From Neisseriaceae bacterium CLB_ANTARCTIC_008 (GTDB lineage Bacteria > Pseudomonadota > Gammaproteobacteria > Burkholderiales > Neisseriaceae): a DNA stretch of 40,000 nt. The stretch spans positions 1,853,380-1,893,379 of the forward strand of contig CP166133.1 in assembly GCA_041228285.1 (NCBI GenBank), written 5' to 3'. The notes under the pieces are model-generated. The model ran no database searches, was not told where the DNA came from, and saw only the letters and a list, made by a program, of their open reading frames with translations. Every line of letters begins with the position of its first letter. The first letter of the stretch is position 1. Shown here one piece after another: positions 9,074 through 15,461 of this stretch. A program made the position numbers and the translations under genes.

Positions 9074-11554
9074 TCATGACGGCAACTCAGGCTCTGAATC
9101 TAAAACGTCCAAAGCTTCCCGTATAGATTCAGCCGTATCAGCCTCAAGCGTAGCCTGTTCTAAATCTCCTTCAGCCAAGCTAATCGGTGCATTATTCTCA
9201 GCTACCACTAAGGATGCCTTTAACACGTCCTCAGCCAACTGTGTGTCATCCAACACCACAGGCTCAACCTCGTTATCATCCTGAACCGAATCTTGCACCA
9301 CAGATGCTTCTGGCCCTTCTGGTTGAGTATCAGACTCAAGTACGTAAGTATCCTTAGGTTCTGGTTCTGGTTCTGGTTCTGGTTCTGGTTCTGGTTCTGG
9401 TTCTGGTTCTGGTTCTGGTTCTGGTTCTGGTTCTGGTTCTGGTTCACCCTCTTGATCAACAGGGTTACTTACATCCCCAGCTTCATCTAGCACAGCAACC
9501 TCCTCTACTAGGCCCTCAGTAACTAAGTCTGGCTCAGTATTGATTACAGCATCCACAACAACATCACTTCCTGGCTCAACGTCGCCGGCAGACTCCTCAG
9601 CCTCTTCATCCAGGTCGATATCGTCAACTACATCAGGGATCACCACGCCATTTTCATCCACAAAAAACAGGTTTAGAACCAAGCCATTATTGACAACTGC
9701 ATCCAATACAGAGATACTGGAGTCCAGCTCGTGGCTCGCTATACGGGAAGGGTACGTCCCCCTGTCGTTGGAAGTAGTCACAGAATTAAGCTCAACGTCT
9801 GTTGGGCTTTTTTCTTGGGCAGAATCCAACACAGCCTGATTTGGGTGGACAGAGTGGTCATAGTGGAACTCACCTTGGTGGTCCTCTTTCACAACGATCC
9901 GCACACTCAATGGCTCATCACCGAGCTGCACGGGCGCCTGTAAAATATGGTACGCCACGGCACTTGGGTCTTCATTAACGTTATATGGCTCAATTGTTTT
10001 CACTTTGTTGGCAGCTGTAATCAGGTTTTTAAGCCCAGCAACCACCTTCAGTTTTCGAGGATCGCGGCTCGCGCTCAATACTTTTTTCATGCCGCGCTTT
10101 CTAATTTCGACCTTGCCACCCAATGCCGGGCAGTCCACCCAGTCGCCAAGCATTTCTTCAAATAAAGCCTTGGCCTGAGTTCTAAGCTGTTGCTTACCCT
10201 CTTTGGTGTTTTCATCAACATGGCCCAACTCATTCCCCGTCAACGTCACCACGCCACTAGCCATGGGTTTAACCCCCTCATTGAGGCCATTCCCTTCTTT
10301 CGGCACTTCTGAGGCAGGAACCATTGCATCTACTGGGTTTAACCCCTCGTTACTAGGGTTCACCCCCTCAGGGTCCACTACTGACGCGGGGGCTTCAGTA
10401 GGCTCTACGGGGTCAACTGACGGCTCAGCCGGTACCACACCAGCTTTCAACTGCTCAATCTCAGCCAGCTTTGCCACCAACACGGCGCGCTTAGCCTCAA
10501 CCTGTGCCTGCATCTCACCCAAGGCCGCTTCACGCTCTGTACGGCGCTTATTGGCCCGCAGGAAACGCCCAGCATTTGCTTCAACCAAAGCCATCACTTT
10601 TCTGGCAATAATGTTGATTTGTTGATCACGGCCATTCTCTTTGGCCACCACAGTCGTGATGTCTTTGCGGTTCAACAACCAGCGCCAGGCAATCAAGTTG
10701 TCAGTTGGTTTGATTGTCTTGGGTGAGGCATCAGGGTTATGCATGAATACACTGATGGTTTGGCCATCAGTCATTTCAAAGATCACGGCCACATTGATGG
10801 TGCCATTGACCTTGTAAGGCTCACTTACCTGAATACCCTCTTCCTTCACCTGAATATCACCACCAGCAAGCCGGTTTAAGGCCATACCAATTTGGCGTGC
10901 TTTACGGCTCAGCATTTGCTGCTGAATCACCAGCGCATCCATCACAACCTCTGGGCTAAACTCACCGCCCTCGGCCAAGATGGTTTCCATCATGTCGTCG
11001 TAGGTCACCGCTTCGTTTAGCTCTTCAGCCTGGTCAACGCGGCCCATGTCGTAAATCGCGAGGCCGGCAGCAGCTTTAGGCTGGCCCCAATCAAAAATAT
11101 TCTGCTGCATGGCAATCTCACTTTCTGGATCAAACGGAAATGACTGTGCGGTGACTTCGGCTTTTTTATTACCGAACTTTAGCCACCAATTAAACTGGGC
11201 CATGGTGCATGGAATGACACTCAATGGCTCCTTATTGAAGGTGCTCAGCTGGTACGCCATCACCGCATCAGCTTGGCTCAAGAACCCAAACATCACTTTG
11301 TGTTCATCAAAGGTGCCAGCGGCCGTGGCCTGATTAATCACATAGATGTTGAGCACTTCAGGGAAAACGCCTACATAGCAATCCAGCGGATCACCATCAG
11401 CGCCAACGGTACCCACAATTTCGCCGTAGTCCGAGGCAATCAATATGGGCTGCTTACCAGGCTTAGTACGGTAGGTGCCCGCATAGGCCTCTAGCTGAAT
11501 AGGCAGACCATGCAACTCACTCACATGGCCTTCTTGATCACGAATAACAGCCAT
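9074..11554 (-). CDS. large multidomain (polyvalent-type) phage protein with acidic repeat-containing C-terminal half
   Basis: 826-aa ORF whose start overlaps the upstream gene's stop. N-terminal ~130 aa (DYGEIVGTVGADGDPLDCYVG...FDEHKVMFGF) looks like an inorganic-pyrophosphatase-like fold. Central coiled coil. The segment KVEIRKRGMKKV...VAYHILQAPVQLGDEPLSVRIVVKEDHQGEFHYDHSV resembles modules of phage/conjugative polyvalent proteins. The C-terminus is highly acidic. Confidence 0.65.
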   Translation of the reverse strand: MAVIRDQEGHVSELHGLPIQLEAYAGTYRTKPGKQPILIASDYGEIVGTVGADGDPLDCYVGVFPEVLNIYVINQATAAGTFDEHKVMFGFLSQADAVMAYQLSTFNKEPLSVIPCTMAQFNWWLKFGNKKAEVTAQSFPFDPESEIAMQQNIFDWGQPKAAAGLAIYDMGRVDQAEELNEAVTYDDMMETILAEGGEFSPEVVMDALVIQQQMLSRKARQIGMALNRLAGGDIQVKEEGIQVSEPYKVNGTINVAVIFEMTDGQTISVFMHNPDASPKTIKPTDNLIAWRWLLNRKDITTVVAKENGRDQQINIIARKVMALVEANAGRFLRANKRRTEREAALGEMQAQVEAKRAVLVAKLAEIEQLKAGVVPAEPSVDPVEPTEAPASVVDPEGVNPSNEGLNPVDAMVPASEVPKEGNGLNEGVKPMASGVVTLTGNELGHVDENTKEGKQQLRTQAKALFEEMLGDWVDCPALGGKVEIRKRGMKKVLSASRDPRKLKVVAGLKNLITAANKVKTIEPYNVNEDPSAVAYHILQAPVQLGDEPLSVRIVVKEDHQGEFHYDHSVHPNQAVLDSAQEKSPTDVELNSVTTSNDRGTYPSRIASHELDSSISVLDAVVNNGLVLNLFFVDENGVVIPDVVDDIDLDEEAEESAGDVEPGSDVVVDAVINTEPDLVTEGLVEEVAVLDEAGDVSNPVDQEGEPEPEPEPEPEPEPEPEPEPEPEPEPEPEPKDTYVLESDTQPEGPEASVVQDSVQDDNEVEPVVLDDTQLAEDVLKASLVVAENNAPISLAEGDLEQATLEADTAESIREALDVLDSEPELPS
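9357..9445. repeat. perfect hexanucleotide tandem repeat (GGTTCT)~14.8, coding (Glu-Pro)15 on the minus strand
   Basis: Read directly from the sequence; in frame inside the 826-aa ORF (…GEPEPEPEPEPEPEPEPEPEPEPEPEPEPEPKD…). Confidence 0.95.
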
Positions 11555-12039
11555 TACGCACCACCTTCTTTTAGGCGGACAATCTCTGTATCAGCTTCGG
11601 CGATCAGCTGATCTAGCTCTTCCAATTCACTGGCAAAAGCTTCTTCTTTGCGTTTGGTTGTTGATTTAAGACCCTTGGGCATCACCACTCTTTTACGAGA
11701 CAAGGCCTTCTGAAAGCGGGTCGAATTGGCTTCGGCCGACTTGATGATTTCTGCGATTGATTTACGGACGTCGTCCTGCTCTTTGATGGGCAGGATTTTA
11801 CCGTTCAGGCGGACTTGATAGATGTCACCGGTGGACTTGACGCGCAACACCAGCTGCTGACTATCGGCCAAGGCAATACAAATTTCACGGTATGAAATAC
11901 TGTTTTCGCGCTTGGTTTTATCGCCCACCCATGATGAGGCGATTTCGGCGCCCGCGCGCTTGAATACAGACACCAGTTTTTTAGGTGCTGTTTTAGGATT
12001 TGGGATCAACTCGTCCCAAGAAAATAGATCGTTCGACAT
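11554..12039 (-). CDS. hypothetical protein (161 aa from second Met)
   Basis: ORF between TerL and the 826-aa gene. The track's first ATG lies inside a hairpin/T-run, so the second Met (12039) is preferred. C-terminal coiled-coil-like tail. Confidence 0.5.
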   Translation of the reverse strand: MSNDLFSWDELIPNPKTAPKKLVSVFKRAGAEIASSWVGDKTKRENSISYREICIALADSQQLVLRVKSTGDIYQVRLNGKILPIKEQDDVRKSIAEIIKSAEANSTRFQKALSRKRVVMPKGLKSTTKRKEEAFASELEELDQLIAEADTEIVRLKEGGA

Positions 12040-12071
12040 AAAAAAGCCCACTGTGCGTTAACAATGGGCTT
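12040..12071 (-). terminator. hairpin plus T-run between terL and the next gene
   Basis: AAGCCCA (12044-12050) pairs with TGGGCTT (12065-12071); T6 follows on the minus strand. Near-copy of the hairpin at 15481-15510. Confidence 0.45.
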
Positions 12072-14748: not shown

Positions 14749-14750
14749 GG

Positions 14751-15461
14751 TTATTCCTCATCATCTAAGTTTTGATTGGCCAGTCGGCGTCGAACCTCCT
14801 CGGCCTTAGCCATGGCCAAAGCCATATTCTTCTCACCAATTGCCTGAAGTGCTTGGATGCTCTCTTCGCTAGCGTCAACGTTCAGATCAACAGACACTTG
14901 GTTGCCCCACAGCTTCGGACGCAACTTAGAGGCCGTCCATTTACGGGCCTCAATCATCAGCTTGGAACGCTCCACGCTCTTCTTGCTGTAATCAATATCC
15001 CCATTAGCCTTAAATTCAACGTCCAATGACGAATCATCGGCAATACGCACAATCTCATCAGCCAGGTAATCTGCTCGAATCGCACAGGCATCATCGTACT
15101 GCCCGCGAAGCTCACCTTTCTCATCAGCATGTAGAGCCCGATAAAACCGAATACGTGGCGGCATCCCCTCTTTTCGGCAAACATCAGCAATAGACATACC
15201 GCCCATGATGTACTCCATCATCTGAGCGAATATTTCAGGTGGTATGGTGTGGCCAGGCAATTCAGACTTAGGCTTCGATTTGGGCCCGCTTTTAGCGGCC
15301 ACCTTTGCCTTTGCGGCCGCTTTAGGCTTAACCGGTGCCTTCTGCTTTGAGGCAGGCTCTTTGGCCGGGGCCTTCGCACTTGTAGCACTGGCCTTTGAGG
15401 CCGTTTTTTTAGTTTTTTCGGCCAGGGCAGAATCAGTCTTTTTGCTTTCAGATTTACTCAT
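14751..15461 (-). CDS. terS: terminase small subunit
   Basis: Lys/Ala-rich N-terminus; HTH-like GMSIADVCRKEGMPPRIRFYRAL; C-terminal ERSKLMIEARKWTASKLRPKLWG is typical of phage TerS families; lies upstream of terL. Confidence 0.7.
   Translation of the reverse strand: MSKSESKKTDSALAEKTKKTASKASATSAKAPAKEPASKQKAPVKPKAAAKAKVAAKSGPKSKPKSELPGHTIPPEIFAQMMEYIMGGMSIADVCRKEGMPPRIRFYRALHADEKGELRGQYDDACAIRADYLADEIVRIADDSSLDVEFKANGDIDYSKKSVERSKLMIEARKWTASKLRPKLWGNQVSVDLNVDASEESIQALQAIGEKNMALAMAKAEEVRRRLANQNLDDEE

What the first reader, a model, noticed from the sequence alone, without database searches (positions are those of the whole stretch)
9074..15461. Packaging module without any recognisable morphogenesis or lysis genes: satellite-like or gutted prophage
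What is present on the minus strand:
- The order is TerS, a 273-aa unknown, an 80-aa unknown, TerL, a ~161-aa unknown, then an 826-aa polyvalent-type protein.
- After that come a 590-bp non-coding gap and AT-rich cargo.

What is missing:
- Nothing between here and the left edge looks like a portal, protease/scaffold, major capsid, connector, tail, holin or endolysin.
- This is so even though the element otherwise has complete immunity, replication, recombination and integration modules.

Three explanations are possible:
- The structural genes lie beyond the left edge, with the antirepressor/cargo block inserted in between.
- The prophage has lost them.
- The element is a satellite that keeps only its own terminase to redirect a helper's capsids.

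A satellite carrying both TerS and TerL but no capsid genes would be an unusual configuration.
Basis: inference. Interest (0 to 1): 0.6.

Follow-up and report, generated by a model that had tools for sequence, protein, structure and literature searches.

The report
Terminase block of complete P1-like prophage
The "orphan" DNA-packaging genes belong to an ordinary, apparently complete 71.5-kb prophage related to phage P1, whose head, tail and lysis genes lie just outside the window, so it is neither a satellite nor a gutted prophage.

Summary

- **One element.** The 61-bp 3' end of tRNA-Ser (window 35384-35444) is repeated exactly about 36 kb left of the window, bounding a single 71,500-bp element. 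It has one integrase and no internal att copy. A same-genus genome has the empty site.
- **Structural genes are present.** The left 36 kb holds intact portal (P1 Prt-like), prohead protease (Pro-like), major capsid (gp23-like), sheath, tube, baseplate, tape measure, tail fibre, holin, endolysin and spanin genes.
- **The block itself is P1-like.** TerL is PacB-type. The 161-aa "unknown" is Hdf-like and the 826-aa protein is DarA-like (InPase + DarA_N + LPD3), in P1's hdf-to-darA order. The 273-aa "unknown" is a remote PmgB (tail morphogenesis) homologue.
- **Separation is normal here.** P1 also keeps pacAB far from its head genes.
- **Co-inheritance.** TerL and the portal occur in the same 6 of 176 family genomes.
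- **Shared signal.** A strand-biased GGGAAC box, often followed by a hairpin, heads terS, hdf, portal, capsid, tail and lysis units, which suggests one late regulon.

This is a new member of a known kind and of low interest.

The parts
14751..15461 (-). Terminase small subunit, 236 aa. Sf6-type oligomerisation core at residues 75-191, behind a Lys/Ala/Pro-rich N-terminal tail.
   Evidence: Pfam PF20901 E 3.6e-25 and phrog_1482 E 8.9e-28. Sequence read. Not similar to P1 PacA or to Rb1 TerS; 29% identical to the TerS of relative G174.
13927..14748 (-). 273-aa PmgB-like morphogenetic protein (phrog_6830 family). By analogy with P1 PmgB it is probably a tail-assembly factor.
   Evidence: phrog_6830 E 7e-22. 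130 homologues found by HMMER. 38 of 61 family members also hit phrog_1854 'PmgB-like head morphogenesis'. Profile against P1 PmgB: hhalign probability 96.5%, E 8.9e-10, 187 columns. Homologue in Rb1 at 40944-41699.
13704..13946 (-). 80-aa protein of unknown function that travels with the 273-aa gene. No transmembrane segment.
   Evidence: phrog_27255 E 8e-6. No Pfam hit. The pair is kept next to the 273-aa homologue in G155 and G174. Hydropathy checked.
12117..13700 (-). Terminase large subunit of the P1 PacB type, 527 aa.
   Evidence: tblastn: 51.8% identity to Xanthomonas phage Rb1 large terminase (E 2e-145), 30.8% to phage D6 PacB and 29.6% to P1 PacB (E 1e-43). phrog_2 E 9e-22. 764 plasmid records match, mostly P1-like phage-plasmids.
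11554..12039 (-). Hdf-like protein, 161 aa from the ATG at 12039. Partner of DarA on the inner capsid surface in P1.
   Evidence: phrog_1620 'Hdf-like antirestriction' E 1.5e-37; Pfam DarA_N E 4e-16. 29% identical to P1 Hdf (E 2e-11) and 40% to Rb1.
9074..11554 (-). 826-aa DarA-like polyvalent internal head protein. Domains: InPase (12-126), DarA_N (204-327), LPD3 (454-565), a (Glu-Pro)n linker and an acidic tail.
   Evidence: Pfam E 9e-37, 3e-25 and 1e-21. phrog_1926 'released from the phage upon host infection'. 29% identical to P1 DarA (E 2e-17); 37% to the Rb1 'internal head protein' (E 4e-63). GGTTCT repeat at 9357-9445.
15480..15511 (-). GC hairpin plus T-run ending 18 nt before the terS start codon. 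Either a terminator or part of a leader cassette.
   Evidence: Terminator scan; sequence context.
12044..12071 (-). Near-identical hairpin plus T-run between terL and hdf. The T-run abuts the hdf ATG.
15540..15548 (-). GGGAAC box, about 30 nt upstream of the AATAAGCCC hairpin. Candidate late-promoter or activator site of the terS unit.
   Evidence: There are 10 minus-strand copies against 1 plus-strand copy in the element.
12103..12111 (-). GGGAAC box of the hdf-darA unit, with the same 30-nt spacing to its hairpin.
8486..9073 (.). 588-bp non-coding spacer after the DarA-like gene. Contains a terminator-like hairpin at 8621-8597 (-).
1..8485 (.). AT-rich cargo (moron) block inside the prophage. 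It holds an antirepressor, a DUF2971/PDC-S31-like protein, an 879-aa orphan, a DUF4236-SHOCT protein, a 151-aa ORF and a DUF4760 protein. No structural genes.
18019..18693 (-). 224-aa HTH protein at the end of the early operon. Candidate late-gene regulator (inferred only).
   Evidence: PHROG regulator hits. Homologues lie upstream of the terminase genes in Rb1 (729-1343) and Uliginosibacterium, and next to NinG in G155.
34232..35347 (+). Tyrosine integrase, the only one in the element.
   Evidence: Pfam PF00589 E 4e-32. No paralogue in the element.
35384..35444 (.). attR: the 61-bp 3' end of tRNA-Ser(tga), repeated exactly at genome 1817324-1817384 (attL, window coordinate -36055).

Best explanation
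Window 9074-15461 holds two adjacent late transcription units of one apparently complete 71.5-kb temperate myovirus prophage. The prophage has a P1-type virion and packaging gene set and is integrated at tRNA-Ser.

- **Unit 1** is terS, a pmgB-like gene, an 80-aa gene and terL. It makes the terminase. An Sf6-type small subunit recognises the phage DNA. A PacB-type large subunit cuts it and pumps it by the headful mechanism (inferred from P1) into procapsids. Those procapsids are built from the Prt-like portal, Pro-like protease and gp23-like capsid protein, which are encoded about 3 to 21 kb left of the window edge.
- **Unit 2** is hdf followed by the darA-like polyvalent gene. It makes capsid-internal proteins. 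In P1 these line the inner capsid surface, influence head morphogenesis, and leave with the DNA to blunt host restriction.

Separation of the packaging genes from the head genes is the normal scattered-operon layout of P1-like phages. AT-rich cargo islands sit between the operons. A shared GGGAAC-box and hairpin leader at the head of the terS, hdf, portal, capsid, tail and lysis units probably ties them into one late regulon.

Shown: gene identities, element boundaries, presence of all structural genes, and co-occurrence in relatives. Inferred: headful packaging, capsid incorporation of Hdf and the DarA-like protein, the regulatory role of the motif, and inducibility.
For: - Exact 61-bp tRNA-Ser direct repeats lie 71,500 bp apart, and these are the only two copies in the genome.
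- There is no internal att copy and only one integrase.
- In same-genus genome G019 the two flanks meet at C5:160299|160300, which is the empty site.
- The left flank holds:
  - portal, phrog_1497 E 4e-151;
  - a Pro-like protein;
  - a gp23-like major capsid protein;
  - sheath (E 1e-114), tube, PmgG-like and baseplate proteins;
  - tail fibre, Tfa, tape measure, holin and spanin;
  - endolysin.
- TerL is PacB-type. Hdf-like and DarA-like genes stand in P1's order. The 273-aa protein is PmgB-like.
- 23 element proteins have homologues in Xanthomonas phage Rb1, spread over terminase, head, tail and Dar genes.
- P1 itself has pacAB at 90.5-93 kb, prt/pro at 17-20 kb and gene 23 at 57-59 kb.
- TerL and the portal occur in the same 6 of 176 family genomes. 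The capsid protein is present in all 5 other carriers, on the same contig wherever the contig is long enough.
- G174 keeps the order TerS-TerL-Hdf-polyvalent.
- The GGGAAC box is 10:1 strand-biased and sits at the heads of the late units. AAGGGAAC occurs 6 times against 0.61 expected, P 4e-5.
- Published roles: DarA/Hdf in PMC12810830; PmgB in PMC9024508.
Against:
- Head-completion, adaptor and tail-terminator genes were not individually identified, so a subtle defect cannot be excluded.
- No homologue of P1 Lpa, PacA, DarB, Ulx, DdrA or DdrB was found by tblastn at E 1e-3. The late regulation and the cargo of the Dar-like system are therefore unknown.
- The GGGAAC motif was not found in the relatives.
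- The PmgB link is remote: 17% identity, detected at profile level only.
Confidence: 0.88

Rival explanations
1. Phage satellite. Under this reading the right part of the region (integrase, immunity, replication, TerS and TerL) is an autonomous satellite that hijacks the capsids of a helper, and the structural genes to the left belong to a separate tandem helper prophage.
For: - Within the window alone, no capsid, tail or lysis genes accompany the terminase.
- A 9-kb AT-rich block separates the Dar genes from the next tail genes.
Against: - There is no internal att copy and only one integrase in the 71.5 kb.
- The left part has no integrase, immunity or replication module of its own among the ORFs scanned.
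- TerL, Hdf, the DarA-like protein, portal, capsid, sheath and baseplate proteins all have their best matches in the same phages, Rb1 and P1.
- TerL and the portal co-occur in the same 6 of 176 genomes.
- The same GGGAAC leader heads units on both sides of the cargo block.
- The empty site in G019 lacks the whole block.
Confidence: 0.03
2. Defective (cryptic) prophage. All recognisable modules are present, but the element can no longer form particles because of an undetected lesion, such as a missing neck or adaptor gene, an inactive regulator, or disruption by cargo insertions.
For: - Five antirepressor-family genes and several AT-rich cargo islands are wedged between the late operons. Such insertions could disturb operon structure.
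- Several small late genes remain unassigned.
- No induction data are available.
Against: - Every core gene examined is a full-length open frame whose length matches its homologues.
- The att repeats are identical over 61 bp.
- The inserted cargo units carry their own copies of the leader cassette and terminators, which suggests orderly moron insertion rather than decay.
Confidence: 0.09

Closest known systems
Escherichia phage P1 (Punavirus): pacAB operon and darA operon (lydAB-hdf-darA-ddrAB)
   Same: - PacB-type large terminase (29.6% identity).
- Hdf followed directly by a DarA_N-containing protein.
- Homologues of Prt portal, Pro, gp23 capsid, sheath, tube, PmgG, BplA, gp25 and PmgB.
- Packaging genes lie far from the head genes, in a genome made of many scattered late operons that each have their own promoter signal.
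   Different: - The prophage is integrated, with a tyrosine integrase at tRNA-Ser and lambda-like CI/CII/NinB/NinG early genes, rather than maintained as a RepA/ParAB plasmid.
- The small terminase is Sf6-type, not PacA.
- A pmgB-like gene and an 80-aa gene sit inside the terminase operon.
- The DarA-like protein carries extra InPase and LPD3 domains.
- No Lpa, DarB, Ulx or Ddr homologue was detected.
- The element is 71.5 kb against P1's 94.8 kb.
- Identities are only 22-35%.
Xanthomonas phage Rb1 (PQ569993.1, 91.5 kb, temperate; carries CI, CII and a serine recombinase)
   Same: - It is the closest sequenced phage. TerL is 52% identical and portal ('capsid assembly protein') 41%.
- Protease, capsid, sheath, baseplate, Hdf-like, DarA-like 'internal head protein' and the 273-aa homologue are all shared.
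- It also combines lambda-like immunity genes with a P1-type virion.
   Different: - TerS is unrelated and directly abuts TerL.
- The 273-aa homologue lies near PmgG and the endolysin instead of in the terminase operon.
- Operon order is different.
- It uses a serine rather than a tyrosine recombinase.
Phage satellites with their own packaging genes (PICIs, cf-PICIs, P4-like elements, PLEs)
   Same: An integrase-bearing, att-bounded element that carries terminase genes, if only the window is considered.
   Different: - Satellites are roughly 7-20 kb and depend on a helper for capsid and tail proteins (established knowledge).
- This element is 71.5 kb and encodes its own portal, protease, capsid, tail and lysis genes.

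Membership tests
P1-like (Punavirus-type) virion and packaging module | PacB-type large terminase | tested here: met
   tblastn 29.6% identity over 76% of the query to P1 PacB, E 1e-43; 30.8% to phage D6 PacB.
P1-like (Punavirus-type) virion and packaging module | Prt-type portal, Pro, gp23-type major capsid, gp22 sheath, Tub/BplA/PmgG tail proteins | tested here: met
   - Portal: phrog_1497 E 4e-151, 28% identity to P1 Prt.
- Pro: 29% identity.
- gp23: 22.5% identity (E 2e-12), and 28% to the Rb1 major capsid protein.
- Sheath: phrog_1036 E 1e-114.
- PmgG: phrog_1114.
- BplA and Tub: tblastn hits.

P1-like (Punavirus-type) virion and packaging module | PacA-type pac-recognition subunit | tested here: not met
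   TerS is Sf6-type (PF20901). There is no tblastn match between P1 PacA and the element, or between this TerS and P1.
P1-like (Punavirus-type) virion and packaging module | Plasmid prophage maintenance (RepA/oriR, ParAB/parS) and no integrase | tested here: not met
   - The element is chromosomal, bounded by tRNA-Ser att repeats, and has a tyrosine integrase.
- tblastn of element ORFs against P1 gave no repA or parAB hit.
P1-like (Punavirus-type) virion and packaging module | Lpa activator and late promoters with a -22 box (AACAAGTGACTT) plus a -10 element | tested here: inconclusive
   - No Lpa homologue at E 1e-3.
- The P1 -22 box is absent from the terS and hdf leaders.
- A different repeated box, GGGAAC, heads the late units.
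Dar (defence against restriction) capsid-internal system | An Hdf plus DarA pair, both with the DarA_N fold, encoded in tandem | tested here: met
   DarA_N E 4e-16 (161-aa protein) and E 9e-37 (826-aa protein). phrog_1620 and phrog_1926. P1 hdf and darA tblastn hits in the same order.
Dar (defence against restriction) capsid-internal system | Cargo proteins DarB, Ulx, DdrA and DdrB | tested here: not met
   No tblastn hit at E 1e-3. The InPase and LPD3 domains fused to the DarA-like protein may be the effector part (inference).
Dar (defence against restriction) capsid-internal system | Incorporation into capsids, and protection of injected DNA from restriction | not testable with these tools
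   This needs virion proteomics and restriction assays. The P1 precedent is in PMC12810830 and PMC9024508.
Phage satellite (PICI, cf-PICI, P4-like, PLE) | Lacks its own full set of capsid, tail and lysis genes and depends on a helper | tested here: not met
   The same att-bounded element holds portal, protease, capsid, sheath, tube, baseplate, tape measure, fibre, holin, endolysin and spanin genes.
Phage satellite (PICI, cf-PICI, P4-like, PLE) | Small, separately excising element with its own att sites | tested here: not met
   The element is 71,500 bp with no internal att copy and one integrase. The empty site in G019 lacks the whole block.
PmgB family (P1 tail-morphogenesis factor), for the 273-aa protein | Sequence homology to P1 PmgB | tested here: met
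   - hhalign of the 61-sequence profile against P1 PmgB: probability 96.5%, E 8.9e-10, 187 columns.
- 38 of 61 family members hit phrog_1854.
- Pairwise BLAST is only marginal, E 0.023.
PmgB family (P1 tail-morphogenesis factor), for the 273-aa protein | Position immediately upstream of the tape-measure gene; required for tail formation | tested here: not met
   - Here the gene lies between terS and terL. In G155 it is next to the sheath gene, in G174 upstream of terS, and in Rb1 after the PmgG-like gene.
- The functional requirement is not testable here.

The most novel reading that the evidence does not exclude
The prophage represents an undescribed integrative lineage of P1-type myoviruses, with a lambda-like early and integration module joined to a P1-type virion. 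Its scattered late operons, including the terminase and Hdf/DarA units, are each switched on through a new kind of leader cassette: a GGGAAC box, about 30 nt, an AATAA element, a GC hairpin and a T-run abutting the start codon. In this cassette a terminator that insulates the operon from upstream transcription would overlap a late promoter or antitermination site. That site would be controlled by a phage regulator unrelated to P1 Lpa, possibly the 224-aa HTH protein at 18019-18693.
Probability: 0.3. Interest if true: 0.4.

Novelty: new member of a known kind. Interest (0 to 1): 0.15.

Why it matters
Mainly as a correction. A terminase block that looks orphaned in a 40-kb window should not be read as a satellite when the phage type (P1-like) normally scatters its late operons and the att-bounded element extends beyond the window.

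The secondary value is modest:
- It documents a chromosomally integrated relative of the P1 phage-plasmids, with a lambda-like early region. The literature regards such elements as rare outcomes of phage-plasmid evolution (PMC12977533).
- It assigns the widespread phrog_6830 family to the PmgB morphogenesis family.
- It points to a repeated late-operon leader motif that could be mapped by RNA-seq.

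Tried and rejected
- **AlphaFold2 model of the 273-aa protein** (4-sequence alignment). Mean pLDDT was 55.6 and pTM 0.50, too poor for a fold search, so none was run.
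- **PDB sequence and profile searches with the 273-aa protein and its family.** No hit even at E 10.
- **Pfam on the 273-aa, 80-aa, TerL, portal-side and capsid proteins.** No families found. Pfam lacks models for these P1-type proteins.
- **PADLOC on the cargo block.** The only hits were PDC-S31 (a candidate system) for the 476-aa DUF2971 protein and an HNH hit for a left-flank ORF.
- **Rfam on 8000-16500.** Nothing found.
- **The search for related loci in genome contigs** gave only one relative, Uliginosibacterium sediminicola.
- **Hairpins as a species-wide repeat.** I considered whether the AAGCCCA...TGGGCTT hairpins might be one. There are 37 genome-wide and 5 in the element, a modest enrichment, and they look like ordinary terminator stems.
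- **The 80-aa protein as a holin,** because its Rb1 counterpart lies next to an endolysin. Rejected: it has no hydrophobic segment.
- **The P1 late-promoter -22 box.** Not present in the terS and hdf leaders.

Full report
**Observation**

The ORF list and profile searches confirm the gene order on the minus strand:
- TerS, 14751-15461. Sf6-type: Pfam PF20901 E 3.6e-25, phrog_1482 E 9e-28.
- A 273-aa ORF, 13927-14748.
- An 80-aa ORF, 13704-13946.
- TerL, 12117-13700.
- A 161-aa ORF, 11554-12039.
- An 826-aa ORF, 9074-11554.

The four genes from terS to terL abut or overlap, so they form one operon. The stretch 8486-9073 has no ORF above 52 aa and no Rfam match. GC drops from about 0.50 in the block to 0.27-0.37 in most of window 1-9000. 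The ORFs there hit only antirepressor, DUF2971/PDC-S31, DUF4236-SHOCT and DUF4760 families, or nothing at all.

**The element is larger than the window**

tRNA-Ser(tga) lies at 35386-35476 (-). Its 3' 61 bp (window 35384-35444) is repeated exactly at genome 1817324-1817384, which is 36,055 bp left of window position 1. These are the only two copies in the 3.26-Mb genome. The repeats bound a 71,500-bp element with 44.1% GC, against 51.3% for the genome.
- Inside it there is no further att-like match beyond chance 10-12-mers, and only one integrase (Pfam).
- In a same-genus genome (G019) the 138 bp left of attL end at C5:160299, and the tRNA-Ser side starts at C5:160300. That is an empty site lacking the whole block.

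**The left 36 kb holds the missing genes**

All of the following are intact open frames on the same strand as the terminase:

| Gene | Location | Evidence |
|---|---|---|
| Portal | L007:16016-17521 | phrog_1497 E 4e-151; 28% to P1 Prt |
| Pro-like protease | L001:18739-19629 | 29% identity to P1 Pro (E 4e-14); 49% to the Rb1 'prohead core protein protease' |
| Major capsid | L002:14976-16667 | best hits Rb1 major capsid protein (E 7e-45) and P1 gp23 |
| Sheath | L002:12691-14307 | phrog_1036 E 1e-114 |
| PmgG-like, tube, baseplate | L002 | PHROG hits |
| Tail fibre, assembly chaperone, tape measure, holin-like, spanin | L001/L002 | PHROG hits |
| Endolysin | L001:5318-5758 | PHROG hit |

The genes are split over several operons separated by cargo rather than forming one contiguous module.

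**The block itself is P1-like**

- **TerL.** Its best phage hits are Xanthomonas phage Rb1 (52%), then Acinetobacter phage ABMM1, D6 PacB and P1 PacB (30%, E 1e-43). In plasmids it matches hundreds of P1-type phage-plasmids.
- **The 161-aa protein** is Hdf-like (phrog_1620 E 1.5e-37; DarA_N).
- **The 826-aa protein** has InPase, DarA_N and LPD3 domains. It matches P1 DarA and Rb1's 'internal head protein'.
- **Order.** The hdf-to-darA order is that of the P1 darA operon.
- **What these proteins do in P1.** 55 DarA-Hdf pairs line the inner capsid surface at penton-hexon junctions, contact the DNA, and are gone from emptied heads (PMC12810830). The Dar system is linked to head morphogenesis (PMC9024508).
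- **The 273-aa protein.** It is phrog_6830, with no Pfam or PDB match. An exhaustive HMMER search gave 130 homologues. Of 61 aligned members, 38 also match phrog_1854, 'PmgB-like head morphogenesis'. The family profile aligns to P1 PmgB with 96.5% probability, E 8.9e-10, over 187 columns, sharing the WTAQ(E/D)R and W-x-x-PL-x-G motifs. P1 pmgB is essential, and its deletion gives no complete tails (PMC9024508).
- **The 80-aa protein** remains unknown. It has no membrane segment.

**Why the packaging genes are far from the head genes**

This is how P1 is built. pacAB lies at 90.5-93 kb, prt/pro at 17-20 kb, the dar operon at 24-31 kb and gene 23 at 57-59 kb, each behind its own late promoter.

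The relatives behave the same way:
- A related roughly 62-kb prophage in complete genome G155 has the same gene set, with the operons shuffled and inverted.
- The 273+80-aa pair sits next to the sheath gene in G155, upstream of terS in G174, and after the PmgG-like gene in Rb1.
- G174 keeps TerS-TerL-Hdf-polyvalent, as here.

**Co-inheritance**

TerL occurs in 6 of 176 genomes of the family, and the portal occurs in exactly the same 6. The capsid protein is in all 5 other carriers, and on the same contig where contigs allow: G174 C15, G173 C10 and G155 C1. No genome carries the terminase without the P1-type head genes. These genomes are kin, so I treat this as descriptive rather than as a statistical test.

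**A shared leader motif (partly followed up)**

Both hairpins that bracket terS-terL (15511-15480 and 12071-12044) are preceded, at an identical 30-nt distance, by AAAGGGAACG.
- The element has 10 minus-strand copies of GGGAAC[AGC][CGA][CGA] and 1 plus-strand copy.
- Nine of the ten lie just upstream of late-direction units: lysis, Ant/tail, Rha, a second Ant, portal, capsid, the gp25-like operon, hdf and terS.
- AAGGGAAC occurs 6 times in the element against 0.61 expected from the rest of the genome (Poisson P 4e-5).
- In six copies the box is followed by (C)AWAATAA, a GC hairpin and a T-run that reaches the start codon.

I read this as the phage's own late-operon signal. It is functionally analogous to P1's Lpa-dependent late promoters but different in sequence, and no Lpa homologue was found. 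Whether the hairpin is an insulating terminator overlapped by the promoter, or a leader terminator that needs antitermination, cannot be decided without transcript mapping. The motif was not found in the relatives. A 224-aa HTH protein (18019-18693) is conserved just before the terminase genes in Rb1 and Uliginosibacterium and sits next to NinG in G155. It is a candidate regulator, by inference only.

**Comparison and verdict**

The element is a mosaic. It has a P1-type virion, packaging and Dar module. It also has a lambda-like early region (CI with an S24 peptidase domain, CII, NinB, NinG) and a tyrosine integrase in place of P1's plasmid maintenance genes.

Phage Rb1 shows a similar combination. 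The phage-plasmid literature notes that such phages can give rise to integrative prophages, although rarely (PMC12977533).

The element fails the defining features of a satellite and of a gutted prophage. What remains open is whether it is inducible.

Earlier notes of this scan call the host a Neisseriaceae bacterium. I did not test that.

Noticed in passing
window 15540-15480 and 12111-12044 (-); further copies at window coordinates -34196, -31266, -21996, -21280, -18800, -3244 and -414 (L001/L002): A strand-biased GGGAAC box (10 minus-strand copies, 1 plus-strand) sits at the head of nearly every late unit of the prophage. In six copies it is followed, after about 30 nt, by AATAA, a GC hairpin and a T-run that abuts the start codon. 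It is a candidate late promoter/terminator cassette.
   Followed up: partly
L001:8028-8567, 10241-11284, 17329-17844 and 18031-18561 (-); window 2511-3404 (-): The prophage carries five antirepressor-family genes (Ant phrog_524 twice, P22_AR_N, Rha-like, Ant phrog_2127). Three of them lie behind nearly identical ~75-nt copies of the GGGAAC/hairpin leader, wedged between structural operons.
   Followed up: partly
window 6363-7034 (-) and L001:13861-14562 (-): Two paralogous DUF4236 + SHOCT proteins lie in two different cargo islands of the same prophage.
   Followed up: no
window 959-2389 (-): A 476-aa DUF2971 protein matches the PADLOC candidate defence family PDC-S31 (E 7e-22) in the AT-rich cargo block.
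   Followed up: no
window 9357-9445: A perfect (GGTTCT)n hexamer array of about 15 units lies inside the DarA-like gene. It encodes a Glu-Pro linker before the acidic C-terminus (Pfam PARP-like low-complexity hit).
   Followed up: partly
window 15284-15461 (-), TerS residues 1-60: The small terminase subunit begins with a ~60-residue Lys/Ala/Pro-rich, histone-H1-like tail ahead of the Sf6-type core. This is unusual for a TerS and may be a non-specific DNA-binding arm.
   Followed up: no
L002:16957-17586 (+): A glutathione S-transferase gene (GST_N E 3e-15) lies on the opposite strand, directly upstream of the major capsid gene. It is a metabolic moron inside the structural region.
   Followed up: no
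L001:9203-10195 (+) and L001:12027-13700 (-): The left cargo island of the prophage holds an HNH_2 endonuclease-like protein (PADLOC HNH E 7e-18). It also holds a 557-aa orphan whose only phage-database match is in an E. coli record, 32% identity.
   Followed up: no
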